A stretch of DNA of 64,000 nucleotides from Candidatus Moraniibacteriota bacterium. GTDB lineage: Bacteria > Patescibacteriota > Minisyncoccia > Moranbacterales > UBA1568. Positions 1-47,141 of this stretch are shown here, piece after piece. Below the pieces are notes generated by a model. That model was not told where the DNA came from. It did no database searches and saw only the letters and a list, made by a program, of their open reading frames with translations. A program made the position numbers and the translations under genes. The stretch spans positions 624-64,623 of the forward strand of contig JAAXTX010000004.1 of NCBI GenBank assembly GCA_013336285.1. The letters run 5' to 3'. Every line of letters starts with the position of its first letter. Position 1 is the first letter of the stretch.

Positions 1-765
1 TCATCATCCGTGCGGCTTTTTGCCTTCCCAATTCTCGAAGTTTCCAGTTTCCGCTTCCGTCATCGTCTACTAAGTCTCGAATATTTGAAAGGGCGATATT
101 GACAGCATTTTTTGTCATTCCGCCATGTCGCTCAACGGATTCCGAGAGCTCTTTTCTGGATAATCTATTTGGGTATTTAGCGTACAAAAGCAAAATAGCC
201 AAGTCTTTTGGGGATAACCCTTTGTGATTTATATACGTTCTGCCATCGATAGTTTCAAAAATCGGGTGCCTTTTTTCCATCAATGATTCAGTTAATGCCA
301 TTACATCTGCATTATCTGGTTGAGTCTGGTTAGAAAAGCGTAGCATCTCTGCTAGCAGCCATGAAATGATCGGCATAACAACGTCCGCATCCATCTTATT
401 TGGATCAAAGTCTTCTGAGTCATGCCTTGTTCCTCTGTTACTAACAATATCGTAAACAAAAGTACATGCTCGAGGCATTGTCAGTCTTAAGACATCGTCA
501 TAGGATGACCCGCTAAGTTGACATAACTCATTAACAATATTGTTAACCTTGAACTGTCTGCTTGGTGGTAGCGTGCCGCCAGTGTAGACTCTTATAGCCT
601 TGAGGAATGATTCAACAAATTTACTGCTCTTAGCTAGCGCACCTTCCCAGTCCTCCTGCTGAAACTTGGTTATTGCCTCAGTAAAGTGGTTTAACAAAGC
701 AGTTACATGAACTGGCGGAAAAACTTTTATTAGGATATCTTTCATTGCCTGAGTCTCTGTCATAC
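1..765 (-). CDS. Hypothetical protein, 5'-complete, 3' end runs off window (island paralog P0; C-terminal winged-helix-like segment)
   Basis: ATG at 763-765 on minus strand; my manual translation runs to the window edge without a stop. Low-GC. C-terminal segment ...LAILLLYAKYPNRLSRKELSESV...GNWKLRELG resembles a wHTH with a wing. No family recognised. Confidence 0.4.
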
Positions 766-771
766 AATTAT

Positions 772-1191
772 CTAGTTAAATATTTTCTGCCAGCTAGGAC
801 GAAGAGAATAGACCCCATTTTTTGACGAGGTAACCCAATCACTTTCTTTTGCCCTAATTGAATAGGCATCATTGTAACTCCCCAAAATTGATTTCATCTT
901 CCCCCAGTCTCTTTCAAGAGCGCTTCTGCTAACACCAACACTCAACTGGCCCTTCGTAGCATGAGCTAAGATAAGAGTAAACTTTTTTTGGCCGCTCATT
1001 CCTTTGCTATGATTCTTTATAAATGCCCTAAGGGGCGTAGAAAAATCAAGGTCCGCAATCTCAGTATTTTTTGCTGGGGTGGATACTCTGGCCTTAGGAA
1101 TATGCTTGTCGGGGACCGATAGGACACTTAGACACTCCTCGGTAAGAATTTGTATCTGTCTAAGGCGCTTAGCGATATTTACTTTGTCCAT
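772..1191 (-). CDS. Hypothetical small protein (island paralog P3)
   Basis: 139-aa ORF in track. 5-bp gap to neighbouring ORFs. Low GC. C-terminal ...TLILAHATKGQ...GVYSLRPSW motif shared with neighbours. Confidence 0.45.
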   Translation of the reverse strand: MDKVNIAKRLRQIQILTEECLSVLSVPDKHIPKARVSTPAKNTEIADLDFSTPLRAFIKNHSKGMSGQKKFTLILAHATKGQLSVGVSRSALERDWGKMKSILGSYNDAYSIRAKESDWVTSSKNGVYSLRPSWQKIFN

Positions 1192-1194
1192 AAG

Positions 1195-1632
1195 TTAGTT
1201 CTTGAGTTTGGCGACTTTCTGAAAGTGATTTTTCACAAATTCTTCTCCCGACGGAGTAAGAGACCAGGTTGTCTTCCCGTCTTTTTTTTCGCTTCCTTCA
1301 TGGATGTGTCCTTTACGAATGCTCATGTTAATTTTGTCGTTGATATTAATGGGAGGTCTTTCTTTTATGGCTTGAAAAGACCTCTCGATATTTGTTTTAT
1401 TAAAAGAAGCCATTCCCTCATGAACCTCAAGAAAGTATCCGATGGCTAGCGTTTTCTGGACATCGCCCTTTGGGTTACATTGGAGTAAGAACTCTTTCAC
1501 TGACATTTTCCGACTAAACGATGATCCTGCGGGGATTGCCTTTTCTTTGGTGATGTCGTTTGGAATACATTTCTCCAGTTTTTTTACGATAGAGAGAATT
1601 TCATCCAGTTTATCCTCAATGGACTTTTCCAT
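1195..1632 (-). CDS. Hypothetical small protein (island paralog P2)
   Basis: 145-aa ORF in track. Contiguous with flanking ORFs. C-terminal ...KTLAIGYFLEV...KTTWSLTPSGEEF wing-like motif. Confidence 0.45.
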   Translation of the reverse strand: MEKSIEDKLDEILSIVKKLEKCIPNDITKEKAIPAGSSFSRKMSVKEFLLQCNPKGDVQKTLAIGYFLEVHEGMASFNKTNIERSFQAIKERPPININDKINMSIRKGHIHEGSEKKDGKTTWSLTPSGEEFVKNHFQKVAKLKN

Positions 1633-1637
1633 AGCGA

Positions 1638-2039
1638 TTAGCTTTTATTCGAATTAGAGCGAGACTCCAGGGATTTTAGTATGTGATCTACTTCGTGAAC
1701 GGGTATTTCATAATTCCCCTTACCAGCCAATAGCCCTATCGCTTTTAATTTCTTTATTGTAGGGTCAACCGTTCCGGACTTCAGTCCAGTTTTAATCACG
1801 ACTTCCTTTCCGGTAATACTGCTTTCTTGCACGGCTCCTTGTCGCTGTAAAAGCTTTTTCACAAGGCCATACGCAAGAATCTTTTCGTCGGCCTTTAAGG
1901 AGACTTCCCTATGATAAACAAGTATGTGCTCGTCTCTCTGAACTGAAATCAGCGGCTTAAGCACAGCCACAACCCGCTCTTCATCAAAAGGGCCGCTGTC
2001 AGTGAAAAGTTCTTCAACTAAAGCCTTTTTAGATTCCAT
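1638..2039 (-). CDS. Hypothetical small protein (island paralog P1), first gene of minus-strand operon
   Basis: 133-aa ORF in track. ...KILAYGLVKKL...GKGNYEIPVH motif. Sits just downstream of a strong sigma70-like promoter. Confidence 0.45.
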   Translation of the reverse strand: MESKKALVEELFTDSGPFDEERVVAVLKPLISVQRDEHILVYHREVSLKADEKILAYGLVKKLLQRQGAVQESSITGKEVVIKTGLKSGTVDPTIKKLKAIGLLAGKGNYEIPVHEVDHILKSLESRSNSNKS

Positions 2040-2090
2040 ATAATGATATTATTAGTTATTTCGGCGGGGCAGGTTCCACGCGTTATCCTG

Positions 2091-2119
2091 AGTCTAGCAG
2101 GCAACGCTCATGATGTCAA
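2091..2119 (-). promoter_or_regulatory. Sigma70-like promoter (TTGACA-17-TAGACT read on minus strand) driving the 4-gene island operon
   Basis: Reverse complement of 2091-2119 reads TTGACA, then 17 nt, then TAGACT. This lies ~50 nt upstream of the ATG at 2039. Confidence 0.45.
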
Positions 2120-2490
2120 GTGAGATTACAAATTCGACTTGTTAATAGAGTAGAAATATAAGATATTGTTTATTATAAAGTAAAAAAAGTGTAAGTATTT
2201 CCAAATGTTTTTATGATAATCATCAGTATAAACAATATAATGCTTTATATAAAGGCAAAATTTGGCAAGTATATATACATAGTTTAATTATAATAGTATA
2301 CATAATTTATATAAATTCATTCCTTATATAAAGTATATTTATTCAAATAATAATATGATATAATAATTAGAAAATTCAGGTTGCTCAAAGGAGGTGTATT
2401 GGCTGCTAAAGTATATATTGCAAACGTGTCAATATACATTTAAGATTTAAGGAAGAAACATGAAAGCAAGAAAGATCTTAAATTCGTAGT

Positions 2491-3414
2491 ATGTCCCTTT
2501 TGCAGAAAATTCAATCTTTAGCTGTTGATTCAAGCTCAGACATTTCTGAATTGTTGAGGCACTGTAAAATTTTGGCTTTTAGGCTTGATAACAACGAGTT
2601 AAAAAAGTGGGTAGACCTTGAGTTGAATGGATATCTCAATGCTGATGAACTTCCGGAATATAGGATCGTTGACGTTTCGACAAGGGGCCATTTTTTTGGC
2701 TCATTTGGTCGTGAGCTAAAGAATGGGGAAATATCGTTGCATTGTATCGAAAAAGAACACCGAAAATATTTAGACAAGGCATATGCGATGCAGCCAATTT
2801 CTGCCTACCTAGCATTAGTAAGGTCGGCTACGGACGGGCAGAATTTTAAAGAATTTTGGCCTGCTGAGCTTGTTGCTATGTATCATGACAAGATGTATGA
2901 GGAGATGTCATGCCTTTCCGCATGGAAAGAAATACCATATTCCTCCCTGGTTGCGCTAATTGATGTAGTACGAAATCGGATTCTTAATTTTGCTCTCGAG
3001 ATTGAAGCCGAAGATTCGAGGGCTGGCGACGTTTCACTTAATGATCTCGGTAGCACATCTCTTACTCCGGAAAAAATTATGAACGTATTCCACAACACTA
3101 TTATCGGAAATGTTGGAAACCTGTCCGAGGGAGGGAGCGACTACTCTCAGAACGCGGCTGTTTATGTGACTGCTGGAGACTTCCAAGCTCTGCACGATCA
3201 ATTGGTTCAATTTGGAATTGAAGAGCAGGACATTCAGGCATTAAATATCGCCATTGAAGAGGACCGCGAGAGTGAAGATAAGGAATCGAGGGCTCTCGGA
3301 AAAAAAGTGAAAGCTTGGATAGCTAAAGTCACTAGCGGACTGAAGCCATTAGCTCAAAATATCTCCGCCGATTTGATAGTAAAAGCTATCCTTATGTATT
3401 ATGGAATTCAATAA
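2491..3414 (+). CDS. Hypothetical protein, possibly abortive-infection (Abi)-like N-terminal domain
   Basis: 307-aa ORF in track, in the low-GC island and divergent from the island operon. The N-terminal pattern LLRHCKILAFRLDNNELKKWVDLELNGY...PEYRIV reminds me of Abi-family N-termini. This is recollection only. Confidence 0.45.
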   Translation: MSLLQKIQSLAVDSSSDISELLRHCKILAFRLDNNELKKWVDLELNGYLNADELPEYRIVDVSTRGHFFGSFGRELKNGEISLHCIEKEHRKYLDKAYAMQPISAYLALVRSATDGQNFKEFWPAELVAMYHDKMYEEMSCLSAWKEIPYSSLVALIDVVRNRILNFALEIEAEDSRAGDVSLNDLGSTSLTPEKIMNVFHNTIIGNVGNLSEGGSDYSQNAAVYVTAGDFQALHDQLVQFGIEEQDIQALNIAIEEDRESEDKESRALGKKVKAWIAKVTSGLKPLAQNISADLIVKAILMYYGIQ

Positions 3415-3472
3415 GCGGTATTTTCCGCTGAGGTTCTTACCGCGTAAACTAGCCAGCTCAGGAAAGCATAAA

Positions 3473-3501
3473 CTCCCCCGCAGAGGGGAGTTTTTGCTTT
3501 T
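3473..3501 (+). terminator. Rho-independent terminator after the 2491..3414 gene
   Basis: Hairpin CTCCCC-CGCAGA-GGGGAG followed by TTTTTGCTTTT. Confidence 0.5.
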
Positions 3502-3513
3502 CCTGGGTAGATA

Positions 3514-4015
3514 GGGAGTCGAACGGGCAGGAACGAGTTGCGATCCGCCAGCTTGCGGAGAGCAAAACGAGTGTAGACGAATGCGAGCAAACGCAGCATT
3601 CGGCTCTGCCCTGGACAACGAGCGCTTTTAAGCGCGAGGACGAAACTCCTGTTACCCGCATCGTAGGTCGTTCGCTTCCTGTGTGTAGCGCCCTGGCTCC
3701 GCGTCGGAGTGCGGAGGACTCCCGTTACCCGAAATCATGAGCGGGAGTCGAACGGGCAGAAGCGATCCGCCGGCTGGCGGAGAGCGTCGATGAATGCGAC
3801 CGAGCAGGGAGCATTCAGCGCTGCCCTGGATAACGAGGTGTCAGTAGACACCGAGGACGAAACTCCCGTTACCCTCCCCCGTCAAATATTGGAGTCGAAC
3901 GGGCAGAAGCGAGTCTTCGAGTGTCGATGAATGCGACCGAAGAGGAAGCATTCAGCGCTGTCCTGGACAACGAAGCGCCAGCAGGCTCTGAGGACGAGAC
4001 TTCCGTTACCCGCTC
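3514..4015. repeat. Tandem array of three ~145-bp GC-rich repeat units, likely structured RNA or regulatory repeats
   Basis: Units begin at about 3514, 3742 and 3891. Shared blocks: GGAGTCGAACGGGCAG, GAATGCGA, AGCATTCAGCGCTGCCCTGGACAACGA and GAGGACGAAACTCCCGTTACCC. An internal hairpin differs in sequence but keeps pairing: GCGCTTTTAAGCGC in one unit, GGTGTCAGTAGACACC in another. Confidence 0.6.
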
Positions 4016-4083
4016 AAAAAGCAAAAAAGAGAATCTATTCGGACCCCCCCCTTTTTTTTGTTCTTGTAATTACGATAAAAAAA

Positions 4084-4116
4084 GCCCGCGCAATAGCTCG
4101 GGCTTTTCATTTTTTA
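4084..4116 (-). terminator. Rho-independent terminator downstream of the S21-like gene (also reads as a terminator on plus)
   Basis: Hairpin GCCCG-CGCAATAGCT-CGGGC flanked by T-runs on both strands. Confidence 0.5.
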
Positions 4117-4263
4117 CCGCTTCGGACCGTGTCCGAGGCGGCGTGCGCGCCGATATTTTCTCAGGGCGCGGCCTCGCTGCTTGTAAAGGCCTGCCTTTTT
4201 AAACGCGCGTTCACCGCGGCCTGTGATGACGCGCAGTTTTCGACATATGTAAACGTTCGGCAT
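4114..4263 (-). CDS. rpsU: Small basic protein, probably 30S ribosomal protein S21
   Basis: GGAGGTG RBS immediately before ATG at 4263. 49 aa: MPNVYI...ERAFKKAGLYKQRGRALRKYRRARR. Compares to S21 MPxVxV...RRFKRxxEKAG. The track ORF 4114..4323 has an unlikely upstream start. Confidence 0.45.
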   Translation of the reverse strand: MPNVYICRKLRVITGRGERAFKKAGLYKQRGRALRKYRRARRLGHGPKR

Positions 4264-8678: not shown

Positions 8679-8763
8679 GATTATAGATATTTCCAAATCG
8701 TACTATTTTGAATCAAAAAACCCCTCTTGTCAATGAGGACTGCTTGAATGATTGCTATTACTG

Positions 8764-8835
8764 TGCCCCGACTAGGAATCGGACCTAGATCTCATCCTTA
8801 GGACGGATTCGCTCTATCCATTGAGCTATCGAGGC
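8764..8835 (-). tRNA. tRNA-Arg (anticodon CCT), no encoded CCA
   Basis: GCCTCGATAGCTCAATGGATAGAGC 5' half, anticodon loop GUCCUAA, T-arm AGGTCCGATTCCT. The acceptor stem has one G-U pair. Confidence 0.7.
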
Positions 8836-8953
8836 AGTCCGCCGTCAACGGTTGAATATTTTCGTACCGTATTTCTTTAACCCAAACCATCGGGTCGTTG
8901 TCATTATTCCCTGAATTCCCTGACCTTCTTCCGATATTACATTGATGTAACGG

Positions 8954-9026
8954 TGGACCTGAGGAGACTCGAACTCCTGACCTCCTCCATGCCATGGAGG
9001 CGCTCTACCAACTAAGCTACAGGCCC
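8954..9026 (-). tRNA. tRNA-Ala (anticodon GGC) with G3:U70
   Basis: GGGCCTGTAGCTTAGTTGGTAGAGC, anticodon loop AUGGCAU, T-arm GGAGTTCGAGTCTCC, G3:U70 identity pair present. Confidence 0.8.
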
Positions 9027-9165
9027 TACTGCCTTCAAATAGTACCGATATTCACGAATGAAGTCAAACATTGTAAATCATTATTATGACATATACCTGT
9101 ATTATGTCAATTGTTTATTTACGGTATTTGTTTTTGGATTTGTTCATTTACTATATTCGTATTTT

Positions 9166-9690
9166 GTTCTACGTGAAACATTTTCATATGTCCTAGTATT
9201 CAGCAGTTATTTGCACGTTGCAAATACGGATCTGAATTTGTTTTCAATCATTGATTGGTCTACGTATTAGTTGTTCTACGTGGAACATAGAAAATATATA
9301 TAAAGAAATGAAAAGACTGAAGTAATGAAATATGTTTCACATGGAACATGATATTTGTTGATTCATGTCTAATATACATCCAACGCAAAATATGTCTAAA
9401 AATTGTAATTCGAATCTCAAATTGATCGTTCCGCAGAAAGAAGCTATATGTTTCACGTGGAACAACTAATCTAATTGATGATTTAAAATGAATTAATGTT
9501 ATTACGTGGAACAACTAATTCAATTACGAGAAACGAAAGTGTTTCACGTGGAACAAAAAATACATTACTGAGGAGTGGCTGAACAATCGTACGAGTATGA
9601 ATTGATTAAATACATGATTTGCACATTGAGGCTCCTAAATAGCGAAAGCATTAATAATCAAGGAAAAACGATAAGTGTTCTACGTGGAAC
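9166..9690. repeat. Seven spaced copies of a 14-bp palindromic motif GTTyyACGTGGAAC in an AT-rich intergenic region
   Basis: Copies start at 9166, 9273, 9334, 9450, 9499, 9541 and 9677. Core CACGTG. The region lies between tRNA-Ala (minus) and the 9811 gene. Confidence 0.55.
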
Positions 9691-9810
9691 AAATTAAACT
9701 TGACATTAGATGTGAATTGTATCATAATGCAAATAGAAATAGAATTTCAATGCCGTAAGATGCAGAAGAATATACAATAAAACAACAACCACAAGGATAC
9801 TTGGCAATAT

Positions 9811-10857
9811 GTGGAAATTAGTGATATAATGAAAAAAAAGAAAGTGATAACAAATATGGAACAGAAAAAAGTTCATCGGTCTGTTCTCGGATTATCGAGG
9901 AAATTAGCGTTTCTTATATGTGGCTTGCTCTTCGGGAGCAGTGCCTTTTTTGTTTTCGCATTGGATGAAAAGGCTAATGCAAACATAGTCGAGGACTCGG
10001 ATCAGGACGGTCTCACGAATGCAGAGGAGCAACTATACGGGACAGATGCGACAAATCCAGATACGGACGGCGACGGATATACTGACGGTGTGGAAGTCCG
10101 AAGCGGATACAATCCCATGAAGAAGGCGCCCGGGGATAAGATTACAACCGATTCAGCACAGACCGCGACCGAGGATGGCCGGCAGGTGGGAGAGAATCTG
10201 ACACAGCAAATGTCTTCAAAAATTGCCGGCATCGTTCAAAATGCCGAAGTCAAGGACGACGGCACCGCATCCGTTTCGCTGGACGAACTGAATAGTCTTT
10301 CAGAAGAAATTGCGGCAGGAGGGCAAGATAACATCGTCCTTCCTGACGTTGATGTGTCTACCATAAAGACCAAAAAAGAATCATATACGAAATTGTCCGA
10401 CAAGGACAGAAAGGAAAAGGTGAAGGAAGATATCACGGAGTATATGACCGTGATAGCATACATATTCGCAAACAATTCGCCACAGACGGTGAAGACTACG
10501 AACGATCTGCAGTCGGTATCGGATACGGTAGTGAAAAACGCGACTTCAGCGCTCACCGTTGGAAACCTGTCCCAAATAGATGCGCTCGCGGAAAATGGTA
10601 ACAAGATCCTGGAACAGGTTAAGGATGTCGAAGTGCCCGAGACGATGTTGGATACGCACGTGAAGGCGCTCAAGCTCGCGATGTATGCATCGGAACTTCA
10701 TGATAAGGCTCCTGCCACGACAGACGAAGATCCCATTCAGTCGATCAAGACCTTGTCATATACACAAGGTTTGCTGAACGTAGCAAGTAGTTTTGCGATC
10801 GATGTACAAAAGAAGCTGGCTGATGAAGGCATTTCGGAAATTCCAATAGAGTTCTAG
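9811..10857 (+). CDS. Secreted or membrane-anchored protein with DxDxDG calcium-binding (thrombospondin type-3-like) repeats
   Basis: Hydrophobic N-terminal anchor, then DSDQDGLTNAEEQLYGTDATNPDTDGDGYTDGVEV. Start may be an internal M (MKKKK at 9829 or MEQKK at 9856). Confidence 0.55.
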   Translation: MEISDIMKKKKVITNMEQKKVHRSVLGLSRKLAFLICGLLFGSSAFFVFALDEKANANIVEDSDQDGLTNAEEQLYGTDATNPDTDGDGYTDGVEVRSGYNPMKKAPGDKITTDSAQTATEDGRQVGENLTQQMSSKIAGIVQNAEVKDDGTASVSLDELNSLSEEIAAGGQDNIVLPDVDVSTIKTKKESYTKLSDKDRKEKVKEDITEYMTVIAYIFANNSPQTVKTTNDLQSVSDTVVKNATSALTVGNLSQIDALAENGNKILEQVKDVEVPETMLDTHVKALKLAMYASELHDKAPATTDEDPIQSIKTLSYTQGLLNVASSFAIDVQKKLADEGISEIPIEF

Positions 10858-27006: not shown

Positions 27007-29148
27007 ATGCAGGAAGCAAAAAGCTGGTCGCTCCAACTGGGCGGTCGGGAATTGCGCGTATCGACAGGACTCCTCGCGGGGCAGGCGAATGGCGCAGTGA
27101 CGGTCAGATACGGAGAGACGGTGGTGTTGGCGACCGCGGTCATGTCCAAGCACGCCGGGCAGTCGCGGGGGTATTTCCCGCTGATGGTCGACTATGAAGA
27201 GCGGTATTATGCGGCGGGCAAAATCAAAGGATCGCGCTTCATCAAGCGTGAGGGGCGTCCGTCGGACGACGCCATCCTTTCAGGTCGTGCGGTAGACCGC
27301 ACGGTCCGTCCGTTGTTTGACAGCCGAATGCGAAGCGAGATACAGGTCGTAGCGACCGTGCTTTCTTTCGACGGCGAGAACGATCCGGATCTCGTGGCCA
27401 TTATCGCCGCATCCGCGGCGCTTTCCATTTCCGATATACCGTGGAACGGCCCGGTCGGCGCCGTGCGTGTCGGACGGATCAGCGGTGGAGATTTTATCCT
27501 GAATCCGACAACCGAAGAGCGGGAGAGCAAGGAAAACGTGCTCGATCTGATGATTTCCGGTACGAAGGACAAGATCAATATGATCGAGGCCGGTGCGAAC
27601 GAGATTCCCGAAGCGGAAATGGCTGAAGCCTTCAAGTTCGGGTTCGAGAGTGTCCAAAAGATCGCGGGATTCATAGGGGAAATCACGAAGGAGATCGGCA
27701 GAAAGAAGTCCGAGGCTATTGTCCTTGCGGGACCTGAAGGTTTTGATGAGGACCTGAAGTCGTTTCTCCGTAAGGAAGGCCTCGCGGAGGCGCTGTTCTC
27801 TCTCGTAAAAAAGGAAGACAAGGAGGCACAGCTTGACGAGATCGGAAAGAAGATGAAGACATATATCGCCGATAAGTATCCGGAATCGGCCGCGGGCCTC
27901 GGAGAAATATCGTCATTAGTGATGGATGAGGTTTCCGATGAGATCCTTCACGAGAAGATACTTAAGGAGAATATCCGACCGGACGGACGGAAACTCGACG
28001 AGATTCGGACGATCACATCGCATATCGGCGTGTTGCCAAGAACTCACGGAACGGGACTTTTCACCCGCGGCGAGACCCAGGCCCTGACCGTGACGACGTT
28101 GGGCGCTCCCGGTGATCAGATGATCGTCGACACGATGGAAGTGGACATGAAGAAGAGGTACATGCACTTCTATAACTTTCCGCCATACTCTGTAGGGGAG
28201 GTGCGGCCGATGCGCGGTCCGGGACGTCGCGAAATAGGACATGGCGCACTGGCGGAGAAGGCGCTCCTTCCGGTACTGCCGCCGTACGAGGAATTCCCGT
28301 ATACGATGCTGCTTGTTTCAGAAGTGCTCTCGTCGAACGGATCCTCGTCCATGGCGTCGACATGCGGTTCCACCCTTTCCCTTATGGATGCAGGCGTACC
28401 GATCCGCAAACCGGTCGCCGGTATAGCGATGGGAATTATCGAGGGCGACGGTGAATACCGCGTGCTTTCGGATATCCAGGGTCTCGAAGATCATTTCGGG
28501 GACATGGATTTCAAGGTAGCTGGAACAGCGGACGGTATCACGGCAATGCAGATGGACGTGAAAATCGACGGTCTTGCGCCTGAGACGCTCGCGGAAGCCT
28601 TGAAGCAGGCCAAGGAAAGCAGACTTTTCATTCTTGGAAAAATGCTCGAGACGATCGCCGAGCCGAGAAAGGAAATGTCCCCGTATGCACCGCGTATCAT
28701 CACGCTTCGCATCAATCCAGACAAGATCCGCGACGTCATCGGTCCGGGCGGCAAGATGATCAATAGGATCATCGACGAGACAGGTGTCTCGATCGATATC
28801 GAGGATGACGGTTCGGTATTCATCACCTCGACCGATGAGACAAGCGCTAAGACGGCGGTGGAATGGATCAATAACCTTACCCGCGAGGTAAAGGCCGGAG
28901 AACTCTTTCAGGGAAGGATCACGAGACTCATGAATTTCGGCGCCTTCGCCGAAGTCCTGCCGAACCAGGAGGGTCTGATCCATATTTCCGAACTTGCGGA
29001 CTATCGCGTGGAAAAGGTTGAAGACATCGTTAAGGTCGGCGATATCGTCCCGGTCGTCGTCAAGGAAATCGACAGCCAGGGAAGGATCAACCTTTCCCGG
29101 AAAGCCGCACTGCAAAGACTTGAAGAGGATGGGACGAAGACGGAATAG
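27007..29148 (+). CDS. pnp: Polyribonucleotide nucleotidyltransferase (PNPase)
   Basis: Two RNase PH domains, KH and S1 at the C-terminus. ATG at 27007 has a GGGAG RBS; the track start at 26965 lacks one. Confidence 0.9.
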   Translation: MQEAKSWSLQLGGRELRVSTGLLAGQANGAVTVRYGETVVLATAVMSKHAGQSRGYFPLMVDYEERYYAAGKIKGSRFIKREGRPSDDAILSGRAVDRTVRPLFDSRMRSEIQVVATVLSFDGENDPDLVAIIAASAALSISDIPWNGPVGAVRVGRISGGDFILNPTTEERESKENVLDLMISGTKDKINMIEAGANEIPEAEMAEAFKFGFESVQKIAGFIGEITKEIGRKKSEAIVLAGPEGFDEDLKSFLRKEGLAEALFSLVKKEDKEAQLDEIGKKMKTYIADKYPESAAGLGEISSLVMDEVSDEILHEKILKENIRPDGRKLDEIRTITSHIGVLPRTHGTGLFTRGETQALTVTTLGAPGDQMIVDTMEVDMKKRYMHFYNFPPYSVGEVRPMRGPGRREIGHGALAEKALLPVLPPYEEFPYTMLLVSEVLSSNGSSSMASTCGSTLSLMDAGVPIRKPVAGIAMGIIEGDGEYRVLSDIQGLEDHFGDMDFKVAGTADGITAMQMDVKIDGLAPETLAEALKQAKESRLFILGKMLETIAEPRKEMSPYAPRIITLRINPDKIRDVIGPGGKMINRIIDETGVSIDIEDDGSVFITSTDETSAKTAVEWINNLTREVKAGELFQGRITRLMNFGAFAEVLPNQEGLIHISELADYRVEKVEDIVKVGDIVPVVVKEIDSQGRINLSRKAALQRLEEDGTKTE

Positions 29149-29226
29149 TCGGAAAGTGAATGGAACGAAACCGCCCCGAATTCGATCGGGGCGTTTTCTT
29201 TATTACATGTACGTAGGTATGCTACA

Positions 29227-30474
29227 ATGCGGACATCAGCGGTAAGCTCCAATAAGCAGCAGAGTATGTTTTTCGGAAACAGGAAGAAGGAACAGATTAT
29301 CGATACTTCTTCGAATGCCGAGCTCTATCAGGGGATACGGGTCATGCAAGACGACCTTGATGAACTTTCCGGTAAACCTCCTGCCGTCGCATCGGTATCG
29401 TCCGCGGAATCCGCGCCGCATACCGGAGCATCGTCCGGAAGTCCTTTTTTAAGTGATCAGTATCTTGCACAGACAGCAACGAAGAACGAAACCCGGGACG
29501 GGCTTCAGGACGGGATCGAAATACAAGAACCGAGCCCGTCGGTCAAGTCGGCGGAAAACATCGATCGACAGTCCGGAGCTCCTATCGCGGAAGTGTTTTC
29601 CGGGCTGAAGAATTTTGTTTCCAATATCGGATCAAACCAGGATACGGTGGAAGAAGAATCCGAACACGAAACCGTTCAGGAGGTGAATGGGTCCGGACAG
29701 GATCCGGTCGCGAGCGGAAAGTCATGGATACTGCTTGCTTCCGCGTTGGCGTTGATAGCGCTTGTAGCGGGGGCGGCGGCATATGTATTCATCTTCAGCA
29801 GAACCGGAGGGAACGAAAATCAGACTCCCGTCGTCGGACCGAATCAGGCGGATACGGAACAATCCGCCCAGTCGATACAGTCAACGGAATCGGAAACTAT
29901 ACCGTTCACGCAGGGAATGCCGAATTATCTTTCCATAGACATCGAATCCGAAGCGTCGACGCCGGAAGGTATCTTGAAGCTTCTATCGGACACGGATGCT
30001 TCTGTCATGAAGGCGAAGCCTTCATTTCCGGTGGAATTCATCATTCGGGATGCCAATAACAACCCGGTCGCCTTCGCCCGCTTCGCCTATCTGCTCGGGC
30101 TGAAAATACCTCTGGAGACACTGACGTCGCTTGATGAGGGCTTCTCATTGTTTTTCGTATTCGATGGAAATGCCGCACGAAGAGTCGTGGTAATTGACGT
30201 GAGACAGGGTAAGGATGTGTCCAAAGATATGAAGGATGGGGAGACATCTCTCGTTTCCTGGTTCGGTACCATGTTATATCCGACCGCCGTTTCGATCTCT
30301 TCGGGAACTTCCTTTCAGTCAGGTTCGTATGGAAAGCTTACTACCAGGTTCATCAATATCGACAGCGCGGACGATACGTCGTTCGATTACGCGATAATGG
30401 ACGATGCTTTGGTCATCGGGACAAGTAAGGACGCGTTCCGCTCGGTACTCGGAACGATCGTCGGTTCCAAATGA
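29227..30474 (+). CDS. Membrane-anchored hypothetical protein (disordered cytoplasmic N-region, one TM, extracytoplasmic domain)
   Basis: 415-aa ORF. TM WILLASALALIALVAGAAAYVFIF. No family recognised. Confidence 0.45.
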   Translation: MRTSAVSSNKQQSMFFGNRKKEQIIDTSSNAELYQGIRVMQDDLDELSGKPPAVASVSSAESAPHTGASSGSPFLSDQYLAQTATKNETRDGLQDGIEIQEPSPSVKSAENIDRQSGAPIAEVFSGLKNFVSNIGSNQDTVEEESEHETVQEVNGSGQDPVASGKSWILLASALALIALVAGAAAYVFIFSRTGGNENQTPVVGPNQADTEQSAQSIQSTESETIPFTQGMPNYLSIDIESEASTPEGILKLLSDTDASVMKAKPSFPVEFIIRDANNNPVAFARFAYLLGLKIPLETLTSLDEGFSLFFVFDGNAARRVVVIDVRQGKDVSKDMKDGETSLVSWFGTMLYPTAVSISSGTSFQSGSYGKLTTRFINIDSADDTSFDYAIMDDALVIGTSKDAFRSVLGTIVGSK

Positions 30475-46341: not shown

Positions 46342-46426
46342 GGAGAGGTGGCCGAGTGGTTGAAGGCGCGCGCTTGGAAAGCGCGTTAGGGGCAACTCTA
46401 CGCAGGTTCGAATCCTGTCCTCTCCG
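46342..46426 (+). tRNA. tRNA-Ser (anticodon GGA), type II, no encoded CCA
   Basis: GGAGAGG acceptor pairs perfectly with CCTCTCC. Anticodon loop UUGGAAA. Long variable arm. T-arm GCAGGTTCGAATCCTGT. Confidence 0.8.
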
Positions 46427-46466
46427 CAGCTCGCTTGTTTTATCGAGTAACCCGAACGCTTTTATA

Positions 46467-47141
46467 ATGCTCAAAATCAAACCACGTCTTAGTGGTTTGA
46501 TTTTTGTGACTATTATGACTAATCCCCAAGACTGGAGAATTGAAGATCATTTTACAGGGATAGAAATTTCTCAGATATTGCCTATTTCTGAGAGATTTAA
46601 TTCAATGCTCGCGAGAGTGAAGAATCGAGAATCACTTGTTTCGAGTATGGAGAATATTTTTGGCATTGTATTTATGGCTCGAGAACTTGAGTGCCATTTT
46701 GAAATTTTTCAACGTCTTCATTCTTCAATTACTCCTTGTAGCTTTAGTCCAATAAGGTCTTCAGAAGAACAAAAAACTATTGAAAAAATGAGGTTTGAAG
46801 CTTTTGCTTACATAAACACTTTAGGGAGATTATATTACTGGATTTCTAAAAGGGGATTGAGCAATGCGCCAAAGATTATTGAAATAGTAGAAGCGTTTAG
46901 GCACAAATACACGGCTCATAGAAGTTCTGATAAGACCAAAAACGAGACAGATTATGAAAAGGAAGTCCATCACTATGTGATTCTTGGAAACCTTTTTAGG
47001 GATAATCAACTAGTGCTACAGATTCAGAAAACACAGGGCAGTATAGTGGAATTTAACCTTACTAAAGACCATGATGTTATCATGAATGAGTTTATAGAGG
47101 TATTTTCAAAATTTTTAGAAGATTTGAAAAGCCCGACCTGA
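46467..47141 (+). CDS. Low-GC hypothetical protein with an Rx5H (HEPN-like) motif; candidate acquired defence or Abi-type gene
   Basis: GC visibly lower than flanks and immediately 3' of tRNA-Ser. The RHKYTAH segment fits the HEPN Rx4-6H pattern. Confidence 0.4.
   Translation: MLKIKPRLSGLIFVTIMTNPQDWRIEDHFTGIEISQILPISERFNSMLARVKNRESLVSSMENIFGIVFMARELECHFEIFQRLHSSITPCSFSPIRSSEEQKTIEKMRFEAFAYINTLGRLYYWISKRGLSNAPKIIEIVEAFRHKYTAHRSSDKTKNETDYEKEVHHYVILGNLFRDNQLVLQIQKTQGSIVEFNLTKDHDVIMNEFIEVFSKFLEDLKSPT

What the first reader, a model, noticed from the sequence alone, without database searches (positions are those of the whole stretch)
1..3420. Low-GC island: tandem array of four diverged small paralogs sharing a wHTH-like C-terminus, plus a divergent possibly Abi-like gene
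GC is clearly lower than the core (by eye). Four consecutive minus-strand genes (1-765 partial, 772-1191, 1195-1632, 1638-2039) are separated by only 3-5 bp and driven by a consensus TTGACA-17-TAGACT promoter. They are mutually divergent but share a C-terminal pattern (LAIL/LAIG/LAYG ... basic helix ... GxW/YxLxP/E wing) suggestive of a winged helix.
Tandem diversified paralogs with a constant DNA-binding-like module are reminiscent of defence or anti-defence arrays, or of mobile-element regulators.
The divergent 307-aa protein (2491-3414) has an N-terminal pattern I associate with abortive-infection proteins. This is recollection and low confidence.
The 450-bp intergenic region is ~25% GC and carries three TTATATAAA motifs.
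Basis: partly seen in the sequence, partly recalled or inferred. Interest (0 to 1): 0.65.

Follow-up and report, generated by a model that had tools for sequence, protein, structure and literature searches.

The report
Unannotated HEPN-like/winged-helix cassette beside AbiTii
A horizontally acquired, low-GC patch in a Candidatus Moranbacteria genome carries a known-type abortive-infection gene (AbiTii) next to a four-gene operon that is a conserved, self-promoted cassette found in more than 100 bacterial species, absent from the four protein-family libraries searched, and most plausibly a new toxin-antitoxin-like or anti-phage module built from a HEPN-like protein and small winged-helix partners.

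Summary
The sequence facts hold: a low-GC island, four tightly packed minus-strand genes behind a TTGACA-17-TAGACT promoter, a 26% GC intergenic region with three TTATATAAA motifs, and a divergent 307-aa gene.

The "four diverged paralogs" reading is only partly right. All four genes end in a winged-helix-type domain. This is shown by structure prediction for A and B, by profile for D, and for C only through weak B-C homology. They are not recent duplicates. They belong to separate protein families that recur as a cassette in at least 127 species across about 11 phyla: a ~260-aa protein (A) preceded by 1-4 small proteins drawn from four interchangeable families (B, C, D, and Cp, which this window lacks). 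The cassette carries its own strong promoter.

A has an N-terminal HEPN-like helical domain with an invariant, non-canonical NRGxRHD motif, followed by a wHTH. None of A-D reaches threshold in Pfam, NCBIfam, PADLOC or PHROGs. AbiTii is not linked to the cassette in any other locus.

Best reading (about 0.45): an autoregulated HEPN-based toxin-antitoxin or abortive-infection-like module. Its function is inferred, not shown.

Next to the island lie three tandem copies of a covarying structured RNA that is absent from Rfam.

The parts
1..763 (-). Gene A (254 of 259 codons lie in the window). The N-terminal ~165 aa form a HEPN-like helical domain with invariant N109-R110-G111-x-R113-H114-D115, plus K48, E51, K55, R93, D125 and R142. 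The C-terminal part (aa 166-259) is a wHTH. Predicted effector of the cassette.
   Evidence: Translation. 52 homologues at 41-88% identity. Invariant columns. AlphaFold pLDDT 90. Foldseek: HEPN proteins 2hsb/1ufb/1o3u at TMt 0.56-0.66 and prob 0.96-0.99, and MarR/PadR/AspA for the C-terminus. Pfam HEPN below threshold in 9 of 49 members.
772..1191 (-). Gene B (139 aa): N-terminal helix (aa 3-23), disordered linker (27-42), C-terminal winged-helix domain (50-139). This family sits immediately upstream of A in 62 related loci.
   Evidence: AlphaFold pLDDT >90 for residues 50-139. Foldseek hits are only WH domains: FOXN1, Rpa2-WH, MCM-WH, DpnI, MukBEF. A B-A fusion ORF occurs in L084.
1195..1632 (-). 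Gene C (145 aa): N-terminal helix, a linker, then a C-terminal domain remotely similar to the B winged-helix domain.
   Evidence: Family of 18 members in related cassettes. hhalign B vs C gives E=3e-4 over 85 columns. No structure was predicted for C.
1638..2039 (-). Gene D (133 aa): first gene of the operon, with a C-terminal ArsR/MarR-like wHTH.
   Evidence: 81 relatives among 1.84 billion representative proteins. The family profile hits ArsR/MarR/HlyU/PagR wHTH proteins in PDB sequences. Weak Pfam HrcA_DNA-bdg hit, E=0.0024. D-Cp fusion proteins occur in L010 and L013.
2091..2119 (-). Promoter of the D-C-B-A operon: TTGACA, 17 nt, TAGACT, with TG before the -10.
   Evidence: The same kind of promoter (TTGACW-N16-18-TANNNT) lies just upstream of 32 of 76 related cassettes and in 0 of 78 control regions.
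2040..2490 (.). Divergent AT-rich intergenic region (GC 0.264) with TT(T)ATATAAA motifs at 2244-2253, 2306-2315 and 2324-2332. These may be operator or promoter elements for the AbiTii gene.
   Evidence: Function not tested.
2491..3414 (+). Gene E (307 aa): AbiTii domain (aa 2-177) plus a conserved ~130-aa C-terminal region. A stand-alone abortive-infection-family gene and an independent neighbour of the cassette.
   Evidence: Pfam PF18864 E=4e-40. PADLOC AbiTii 7e-40. C-terminus matches phrog_16090 at 2.7e-5. Full-length homologues on 76 plasmids. Absent from all other cassette loci.
3463..3500 (+). Hairpin plus T-run terminator after the AbiTii gene. It marks the right-hand edge of the low-GC block.
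   Evidence: (inverted repeat I1).

Best explanation
Positions 1-3420 are the visible part of a horizontally acquired island. The island continues past the left edge of the window. It holds two independent units.

Unit 1 is the operon D-C-B-A. It is one instance of a widespread, self-contained cassette that none of the four protein-family libraries searched describes. It has a strong sigma-70-type promoter, then 1-4 small 'N-terminal helix, linker, winged-helix' proteins drawn from four interchangeable families (D, C, Cp, B), then a ~260-aa protein A. A joins a HEPN-like domain carrying an invariant polar cluster (NRGxRHD and others) to a C-terminal wHTH.

The most likely mechanism is inferred, not shown. 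A would be a latent HEPN-type ribonuclease toxin or effector. The small winged-helix proteins would assemble with it, probably through their N-terminal helices and WH domains, and hold it inactive. They would also repress the cassette promoter. Loss or displacement of the partners, for example during phage infection or loss of the element, would free A to cleave RNA and arrest growth. That makes it a toxin-antitoxin-like or abortive-infection-like module.

Unit 2 is a stand-alone AbiTii-domain gene of a family common on plasmids. Together the two units form a small defence-type islet next to a small-RNA gene array.
For: Shown:
- Foreign composition of all five genes.
- The cassette is conserved. 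Relatives of A occur in at least 127 of 185,579 species genomes across about 11 phyla, always preceded on the same strand by B, C, D or Cp family genes. Counts: Cp-B-A 26, Cp-Cp-B-A 21, and D-C-B-A in the window and L044.
- No conserved gene lies outside the cassette. Neighbourhoods range from integrase, relaxase or transposase to pure housekeeping.
- Own promoter: 32 of 76 cassettes against 0 of 78 controls. TATTCA/TGAATA repeats bracket the -10 in a subset.
- Natural fusions B-A (L084) and D-Cp (L010, L013) indicate that the products work together.
- A and the B winged-helix domain co-vary: r=0.51, with mean pairwise identity 44.8% and 44.5%.
- HEPN-like domain in A: Foldseek hits 2hsb, 1ufb and 1o3u. 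Pfam HEPN is the commonest sub-threshold hit, 9 of 49 members, and aligns colinearly. Eleven charged or polar residues are invariant.
- Winged-helix folds.
- The only recurring neighbour classes are R-M methyltransferases and recombinases or transposases.

Precedent from the literature:
- In retron type IX, a WH protein wraps a HEPN nuclease that also lacks the canonical Rx4-6H motif and blocks its active site until phage infection (bioRxiv 10.64898/2026.07.14.738597).
- wHTH-HEPN fusion effectors (CnuE) occur in CoCoNuT systems (PMC11090510).
- HEPN is the main Abi/TA RNase fold (PMC3710099).
Against: - The canonical HEPN Rx4-6H motif is absent; the spacing is R-x3-H.
- All HEPN evidence is below curated thresholds: Foldseek E 0.2-0.6, Pfam E >= 0.006.
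- Helical bundles match each other easily, so the domain could be a non-catalytic sensor or dimerisation module.
- There are no hits in PADLOC or PHROGs.
- Defence-gene enrichment around the cassette is modest. Most neighbours are unrelated or housekeeping genes.
- A toxin that carries its own DNA-binding domain, with up to four DNA-binding partners, is unusual for TA systems.
- Nothing here tests toxicity, complex formation or phage resistance.
Confidence: 0.45

Rival explanations
1. A non-toxic DNA-binding complex. The four proteins would be transcription regulators or nucleoid- or partition-type factors of a mobile element. The HEPN-like domain of A would act only as a dimerisation or ligand-sensing module, as in MtlR-type inactive HEPN domains. 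The cassette would control or silence DNA rather than kill the cell.
For: - All four products have winged-helix domains.
- Strong self-promoter with operator-like repeats.
- No canonical Rx4-6H motif.
- Some loci lie beside integrases, a relaxase or serine recombinases.
- AspA, a centromere-binding wHTH protein, is among the Foldseek hits.
Against: - Many cassettes sit alone among housekeeping genes in small CPR genomes, with no other element genes to regulate.
- Eleven invariant charged or polar residues cluster in the sequence around the NRGxRHD loop. That looks like an active or ligand-binding site rather than a plain interface.
- No ParA-type or replication gene co-occurs.
Confidence: 0.3
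2. The AbiTii gene and the D-C-B-A operon form one five-gene defence system, divergently transcribed from the shared AT-rich region.
For: They are adjacent, divergently oriented, share the low GC, and share a 450-bp control region with repeated TTATATAAA motifs.
Against: - No AbiTii homologue lies within +/-8 kb of the cassette in about 83 other loci.
- Full-length AbiTii homologues occur on 76 plasmids without the cassette.
- The cassette has its own conserved promoter.
Confidence: 0.05
3. One reading: the four genes are a tandem array of recently duplicated, rapidly diversifying paralogs with a constant wHTH module.
For: - A shared wing and helix pattern is visible by eye and confirmed at fold level.
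- Weak B-C profile similarity.
- B, C and Cp share an N-terminal helix motif.
Against: - Each gene has closer orthologues in other phyla than any paralog within the array.
- Pairwise and most profile comparisons are non-significant.
- A has an additional 165-aa domain.
- The B winged-helix domain evolves no faster than A.
Confidence: 0.05

Closest known systems
Retron type IX (Retron-Kva2) HEPN + WH effector pair
   Same: A HEPN nuclease that lacks the canonical Rx4-6H motif is paired with a separate winged-helix protein. The WH protein wraps the HEPN and occludes its active site until phage infection. It works by abortive infection (bioRxiv 10.64898/2026.07.14.738597).
   Different: There is no reverse transcriptase or msr/msd ncRNA in the window or among recurring neighbours. 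Here there are 1-4 small WH proteins of other families, and the HEPN-like protein carries its own wHTH. No sequence similarity was detected.
CoCoNuT CnuE (wHTH-HEPN fusion effectors of McrBC-related systems)
   Same: A single polypeptide combines a wHTH and a HEPN domain. Coiled-coil segments are proposed to mediate assembly, and some copies have shortened HEPN motifs (PMC11090510).
   Different: The domain order is reversed: HEPN-like at the N-terminus, wHTH at the C-terminus. No CnuH helicase or McrBC GTPase genes accompany the cassette, and the proteins are much smaller.
HEPN-MNT and other HEPN-based type II/VII toxin-antitoxin modules
   Same: A compact, horizontally mobile operon in which the HEPN-fold protein is the last gene and small partner genes lie upstream. 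The best structural matches of A's N-domain (2hsb, 1ufb, 1o3u) are small stand-alone HEPN-domain proteins; from memory, not checked here, these belong to the MNT-associated HEPN class.
   Different: There is no nucleotidyltransferase partner. The partners are winged-helix proteins and there are up to four of them. The Rx4HxY motif is absent. Toxicity is untested.
Lactococcal AbiT (AbiTi + AbiTii) and the AbiTii-domain proteins of Anantharaman et al. 2013
   Same: Gene E has a full AbiTii domain (PF18864, E=4e-40).
   Different: No AbiTi partner gene is present. The C-terminal 130 aa match no HEPN model, whereas described non-lactococcal homologues carry c2405 or Ymh HEPN domains (PMC3710099). 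E resembles a stand-alone ~305-aa plasmid-borne subfamily.

Membership tests
AbiTii-domain proteins (Pfam PF18864) | Match to the AbiTii N-terminal domain above the curated threshold | tested here: met
   Gene E scores 138.5 bits against a cut-off of 27.6, E=4e-40, residues 2-177. PADLOC AbiTii 7.4e-40.
Lactococcal two-gene AbiT system | An adjacent co-transcribed AbiTi partner gene | tested here: not met
   No co-oriented ORF flanks gene E. Upstream is the 450-bp AT-rich intergenic region and downstream is a terminator. PADLOC matched nothing but AbiTii among the five island genes.
Lactococcal two-gene AbiT system | Abortive-infection phenotype against phage | not testable with these tools
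   Needs infection assays.
HEPN superfamily (gene A, N-terminal domain) | All-alpha up-and-down helical bundle similar to solved HEPN domains | tested here: met
   The model has pLDDT 90. Foldseek hits 2hsb, 1ufb and 1o3u at prob 0.96-0.99 and TM (target-normalised) 0.56-0.66, but with E 0.2-0.6.
HEPN superfamily (gene A, N-terminal domain) | Conserved Rx4-6H motif before the last core helix | tested here: not met
   The invariant motif is N-R-G-x-R-H-D, with R-x3-H spacing, in the loop between helices 90-108 and 121-145. The archaeal homologue has NNRDSVH. Non-canonical HEPN sites are known (retron IX preprint).
HEPN superfamily (gene A, N-terminal domain) | Sequence match to a curated HEPN model above threshold | tested here: not met
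   PF05168 matches only below threshold: 9 of 49 members, best E=0.006, 12-15 bits against a cut-off of 22.
HEPN superfamily (gene A, N-terminal domain) | Metal-independent RNase activity | not testable with these tools
   Needs biochemistry.
Winged helix-turn-helix fold (C-termini of A, B, C, D) | H1-(beta)-H2-H3-beta-hairpin wing topology similar to solved wHTH domains | tested here: met
   Met for A (aa 166-259) and B (aa 50-139) by models and Foldseek. D is supported by profile hits to ArsR/MarR proteins at E 0.02-0.5. C is supported only indirectly, through B~C hhalign E=3e-4, and is therefore inconclusive.
   BLASTP E >= 0.05 for all pairs. hhalign supports only B~C, weakly; the rest have E >= 0.002 and probability below 14%.
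Type II toxin-antitoxin module | Small autoregulated operon with DNA-binding partner(s) upstream of the toxin gene | tested here: inconclusive
   The gene order, tight spacing, own promoter and operator-like repeats fit. Autoregulation and toxicity are untested.
Known anti-phage systems (PADLOC-DB v2.0.0) | Any component matching a defence-system HMM | tested here: not met
   No PADLOC hit for A, B, C or D at E <= 1. Also no significant Pfam hit and no NCBIfam or PHROG hit.
Retron type IX / CoCoNuT | Associated reverse transcriptase plus ncRNA, or a CnuH helicase plus McrBC | tested here: not met
   No such genes lie next to the cassette in the window, and none recur among the neighbours of about 80 loci.

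The most novel reading that the evidence does not exclude
The cassette is a new multi-component anti-phage (abortive-infection) system. Interchangeable small winged-helix proteins (D, C, Cp, B) would form a hetero-oligomeric clamp on a non-canonical HEPN ribonuclease (A) and act as swappable sensors of phage cues. This would explain the combinatorial make-up of the cassette across about 11 phyla, including the tiny genomes of CPR bacteria, where few defence systems are known.
Probability: 0.3. Interest if true: 0.7.

Novelty: new variant of a known kind. Interest (0 to 1): 0.55.

Why it matters
If the inferred mechanism holds, this would be a HEPN-based conflict system that none of the libraries searched here describes. 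It has a modular architecture: one conserved effector plus a changeable set of winged-helix partners. It is spread by horizontal transfer through soil and groundwater bacteria, including Patescibacteria (CPR), whose immune repertoire is poorly known.

It would add a second example of winged-helix proteins gating a non-canonical HEPN nuclease, alongside the recently described retron type IX. It would also give four new protein families a function.

Even if it is only a regulator complex, five unannotated families (A, B, C, D, Cp) can now be defined as one genetic unit. The adjacent covarying RNA, triplicated here and embedded in tRNA arrays elsewhere, is a separate candidate for a new RNA family.

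Tried and rejected
- Pairwise BLASTP and MAFFT of A-D gave no significant similarity.
- The first hhalign runs gave false A~B and D~Cp hits caused by fused ORFs in the alignments. They were removed after cleaning.
- Pfam, NCBIfam, PHROGs and PADLOC scans of A-D found nothing above threshold. The Cp family also has no Pfam family.
- B- and C-family profiles against PDB sequences gave no usable hit.
- The search for homologous proteins with B alone found only 2 proteins. It was repeated with a profile.
- Searches for A in IMG/VR, INPHARED phages and BFVD found no relatives, which rejects a phage or anti-defence origin.
- Attempts to obtain the contig to the left of the window returned only 1-2.6-kb Logan contigs. 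The left island boundary, any integrase and any att site therefore remain unseen.
- AbiTii as part of the cassette was rejected.
- A hammerhead or other known ribozyme reading of the 3510-4016 repeats was considered and dropped. The junction sequences do not fit, and Rfam gave no hit at E <= 1.
- A tRNA T-arm reading of the GGAGTCGAAC motif was rejected by inspection.


Full report
**Source and layout.** Gene A is 100% identical to a protein on a 70,188-bp contig of a Candidatus Moranbacteria (CPR/Patescibacteria) MAG. The window starts 5 codons before the stop of gene A. The full 259-aa protein was recovered from a 2.6-kb Logan contig, L001.

On the minus strand lie:
- D, 1638-2039, 133 aa
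- C, 1195-1632, 145 aa
- B, 772-1191, 139 aa
- A, 1-763

The gaps between them are 5, 3 and 8 nt. On the plus strand lies E, 2491-3414, 307 aa, followed by a hairpin terminator at 3463-3500.

**Checking the observation.**
- Composition. Genes A-E have GC 0.40-0.43 and GC3 0.40-0.44. The 45 long ORFs in the rest of the window have GC 0.511 +/- 0.035 and GC3 0.584 +/- 0.064. Codon-usage distance to the core pool is 0.24-0.31 for the island genes and 0.153 +/- 0.036 for core genes. The block is compositionally foreign.
- Promoter. TTGACA-17-TAGACT, with TG before the -10, lies at 2119..2091 on the minus strand.
- Intergenic region. Positions 2040-2490 have GC 0.264. The only TTATATAAA copies in the 64 kb are at 2244-2253, 2306-2315 and 2324-2332, two of them inside TTTATATAAA palindromes. 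A local shuffle expects 0.12 hits against 5 strand-wise hits observed.
- Gene E. It is an AbiTii-domain protein: Pfam PF18864 E=4e-40, PADLOC AbiTii 7e-40.

**Are the four genes paralogs?**
- Pairwise BLASTP among A-D is non-significant.
- I built family alignments from related loci and removed fused ORFs that had produced artefactual hits. After that, hhalign supports only a weak B~C relation over the whole C-terminal domain: E=3e-4, probability 38%, 85 columns. Every other pair is non-significant.
- At fold level the shared module is real:
  - A residues 166-259 form a wHTH (model pLDDT 90; Foldseek hits MarR, PadR, AspA and forkhead).
  - B has an N-terminal helix (3-23), a disordered linker (27-42) and a confident winged-helix domain (50-139). 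That domain hits only WH domains such as FOXN1, Rpa2-WH, MCM-WH and DpnI.
  - The D-family profile hits a run of ArsR/MarR/HlyU/PagR wHTH proteins at E 0.02-0.5.
  - C was not modelled and rests on its similarity to B.

So "shares a winged-helix C-terminus" is supported, and "diverged paralogs" is not.

**What the operon really is.**
- A has 52 homologues at 41-88% identity, none with a Pfam domain.
- A pattern scan of one genome per species found at least 127 relatives among 185,579 species. All of the best 80 are MAGs. They come from Patescibacteria, Acidobacteriota, Pseudomonadota, Nitrospirota, Gemmatimonadota, Verrucomicrobiota, Planctomycetota, Chloroflexota, Omnitrophota, Bdellovibrionota and others.
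- In these loci A is always preceded on the same strand by 1-4 small genes from four families, which I defined by iterated HMM searches:
  - B, ~140 aa, directly upstream of A in 62 loci
  - Cp, ~115 aa, a compact winged helix, the commonest family, absent from this window
  - C, ~148 aa
  - D, ~133 aa
- Architectures include Cp-B-A (26), Cp-Cp-B-A (21), Cp-Cp-A (8), C-Cp-B-A (5) and D-C-B-A (the window and L044).
- Nothing outside the cassette is conserved.
- Neighbourhoods vary. Some have a serine recombinase, tyrosine integrases with a relaxase, or an ISL3 insertion inside the cassette. Others are plain housekeeping genes such as RecJ, RNase H, TIM, PGK, L28 and S15.
- Among 136 nearest neighbours, the only recurring classes are DNA methyltransferases or R-M components (about 7-9) and integrases, recombinases or transposases (about 8).
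- The cassette brings its own promoter. TTGACW-N16-18-TANNNT lies just upstream in 32 of 76 loci and in 0 of 78 control regions. A subset of Cp-first cassettes has TATTCA/TGAATA repeats bracketing the -10, which look like operators.
- Natural fusions exist: B-A in one 388-aa ORF (L084), and D-Cp in 232-242-aa proteins (L010, L013).
- Across 57 loci the B winged-helix domain is as conserved as A (44.5% and 44.8% mean identity, r=0.51). The B N-terminal helix and linker are highly variable (17%).
- No relative of A occurs in IMG/VR, in GenBank phages, or as a full-length fold in BFVD.
- One distant homologue of the N-domain lies on a Natronomonas plasmid, with the motif YDIRNNRDSVH.

**The effector candidate.**
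- A's N-terminal ~165 aa form a helical bundle. Its best PDB matches are HEPN-domain proteins: 2hsb, 1ufb and 1o3u, at probability 0.96-0.99, target-normalised TM 0.56-0.66 and E 0.2-0.6.
- Independently, Pfam HEPN (PF05168) is the most frequent sub-threshold hit in the family: 9 of 49 members, best E=0.006. It maps colinearly to residues ~26-91, which correspond to profile positions 12-77 of 117.
- The family has invariant K48, E51, K55, R93, N109, R110, G111, R113, H114, D115, D125 and R142.
- The NRGxRHD loop sits between helices 90-108 and 121-145. From memory, that is roughly where HEPN domains carry Rx4-6H, but I did not check this against a template, and the spacing here is R-x3-H.
- Membership in HEPN is therefore probable at fold level but fails the motif criterion and the curated-threshold criterion.
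- Non-canonical HEPN active sites are documented. The retron-IX HEPN lacks Rx4-6H yet is an RNase (bioRxiv 10.64898/2026.07.14.738597), and one CnuE HEPN domain has a shortened RxH motif (PMC11090510).

**Mechanism (inferred).** The gene order, tight coupling, own promoter, operator-like repeats, fusions, patchy cross-phylum distribution and foreign composition fit a selfish or defensive module. In it, A would be a latent RNase and the small winged-helix proteins would both repress the operon and hold A inactive. The closest worked example is retron type IX, where a WH protein wraps the HEPN and blocks its active site until a phage nuclease destroys the msDNA. No RT or ncRNA accompanies this cassette, so the trigger would have to be different. 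I put this reading at about 0.45.

The main rival, at about 0.3, is a non-toxic DNA-binding or regulatory complex with an inactive HEPN-like module. The single-system reading (AbiTii plus operon) is rejected on co-occurrence. The recent-paralog reading is rejected on the evidence above.

**Gene E.** The AbiTii domain was defined by Anantharaman et al. 2013 (PMC3710099). It is usually fused to C-terminal c2405 or Ymh HEPN domains outside Lactococcus. E's C-terminal 130 aa hit no HEPN model, only phrog_16090. Full-length homologues at 29-34% identity occur on 76 plasmids as stand-alone genes. In one E. coli IncFII plasmid the gene lies beside an AAA ATPase plus helicase pair. No AbiTi partner is present. 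E is a new member of a known kind.

**Island limits.** To the right, GC jumps to 0.55 at 3421. The next features are three tandem RNA-like repeats (3510-4016) and a short minus-strand ORF at 4114-4263 that looks like ribosomal protein S21 (by eye, with no Pfam match), with a terminator-like hairpin nearby that I read by eye. To the left, the 327 bp beyond A's stop in L001 are still AT-rich and end in a promoter and SD-like sequence. The island therefore continues beyond the window. Its boundary and any integrase could not be retrieved.

**Novelty and scores.** The AbiTii gene is ordinary. The cassette matches no model in Pfam, NCBIfam, PHROGs or PADLOC, and I found no paper describing it in three full-text searches. 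I classify it as a new variant of a known kind: HEPN-based conflict modules gated by partner proteins. Interest is 0.55. It is a well-supported new genetic unit with a plausible but untested function.

Noticed in passing
window 3510-4016 (+): copies at 3510-3662, 3739-3879 and 3886-4016; partial 3' end at 3717-3731: Three tandem copies of a ~135-150-nt structured RNA-like element (5' GGGAGUCGAACGGGCAG ... CUGCCCUGGAYAACGAG-hairpin-GAGGACGAAACUCCCGUUACCC 3') lie directly right of the island. The element is GC-rich (0.56-0.64), so it is not part of the island. Rfam 15 gave no match at these copies in the window (E <= 1) or at the related copies in four contigs (gathering threshold). A covariance model built from the three copies finds 9 more full-length copies in metagenome contigs (E 1e-9 to 3e-16; two are probably the same sequence). 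In the four contigs I checked, the copy is single and lies in or beside tRNA gene arrays on the tRNA strand. Twenty of 37 pairs show compensatory changes, and 90.8% of cells are paired against about 40% in slid controls. It is a candidate new RNA family; function unknown.
   Followed up: partly
window 46342-47141: A second low-GC ORF (about 46467-47141, GC 0.374, GC3 0.344, the most atypical codon usage among the core ORFs) lies directly downstream of tRNA-Ser(GGA) at 46342-46427. It has no Pfam hit and contains an RHKYTAH (R-x5-H) motif that could be HEPN-like. It may be another small tRNA-adjacent defence islet.
   Followed up: partly
window 9000-9810: An ~800-bp stretch with very low GC (0.325 for 9001-10000) and no convincing ORF lies just after tRNA-Ala (8952-9026) and tRNA-Arg (8763-8835). 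It precedes a 348-aa secreted-looking protein with bacterial TSP3 repeats at 9811-10857.
   Followed up: no
L004, L016, L017, L018, L025, L038 and others: promoter regions of Cp-first cassettes: TATTCA(CTTATTCA) in the -35/-10 spacer and TGAATA repeats between the -10 and the start codon are conserved across cassettes from different phyla. Mean count is 0.47 hexamers per 135 nt upstream against 0.02-0.10 in controls. This is a likely operator for one of the winged-helix proteins. The D-first cassette of the window lacks it.
   Followed up: partly
L006 2615-3568: In one related locus an ISL3-family transposase is inserted between the B-family gene and gene A of the cassette. This presumably uncouples A from its operon.
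   Followed up: no
L091 (Natronomonas pharaonis plasmid PL131, record 1751-2623): A 290-aa haloarchaeal plasmid protein shares the N-terminal domain of A (25% identity, motif YDIRNNRDSVH) but has a different C-terminus. Several small genes, one of them a MarR-like HTH, lie about 2-4 kb upstream on the same strand, separated from it by a 299-aa gene on the opposite strand. This hints at an archaeal version of the module.
   Followed up: partly
L213 (E. coli IncFII plasmid NZ_CP019904.1, record 24877-30224): The plasmid-borne full-length homologue of the AbiTii gene sits immediately downstream of an AAA-family ATPase plus ATP-dependent helicase pair, which may be a Gabija-like defence pair. This fits a defence-island setting for this AbiTii subfamily.
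   Followed up: no
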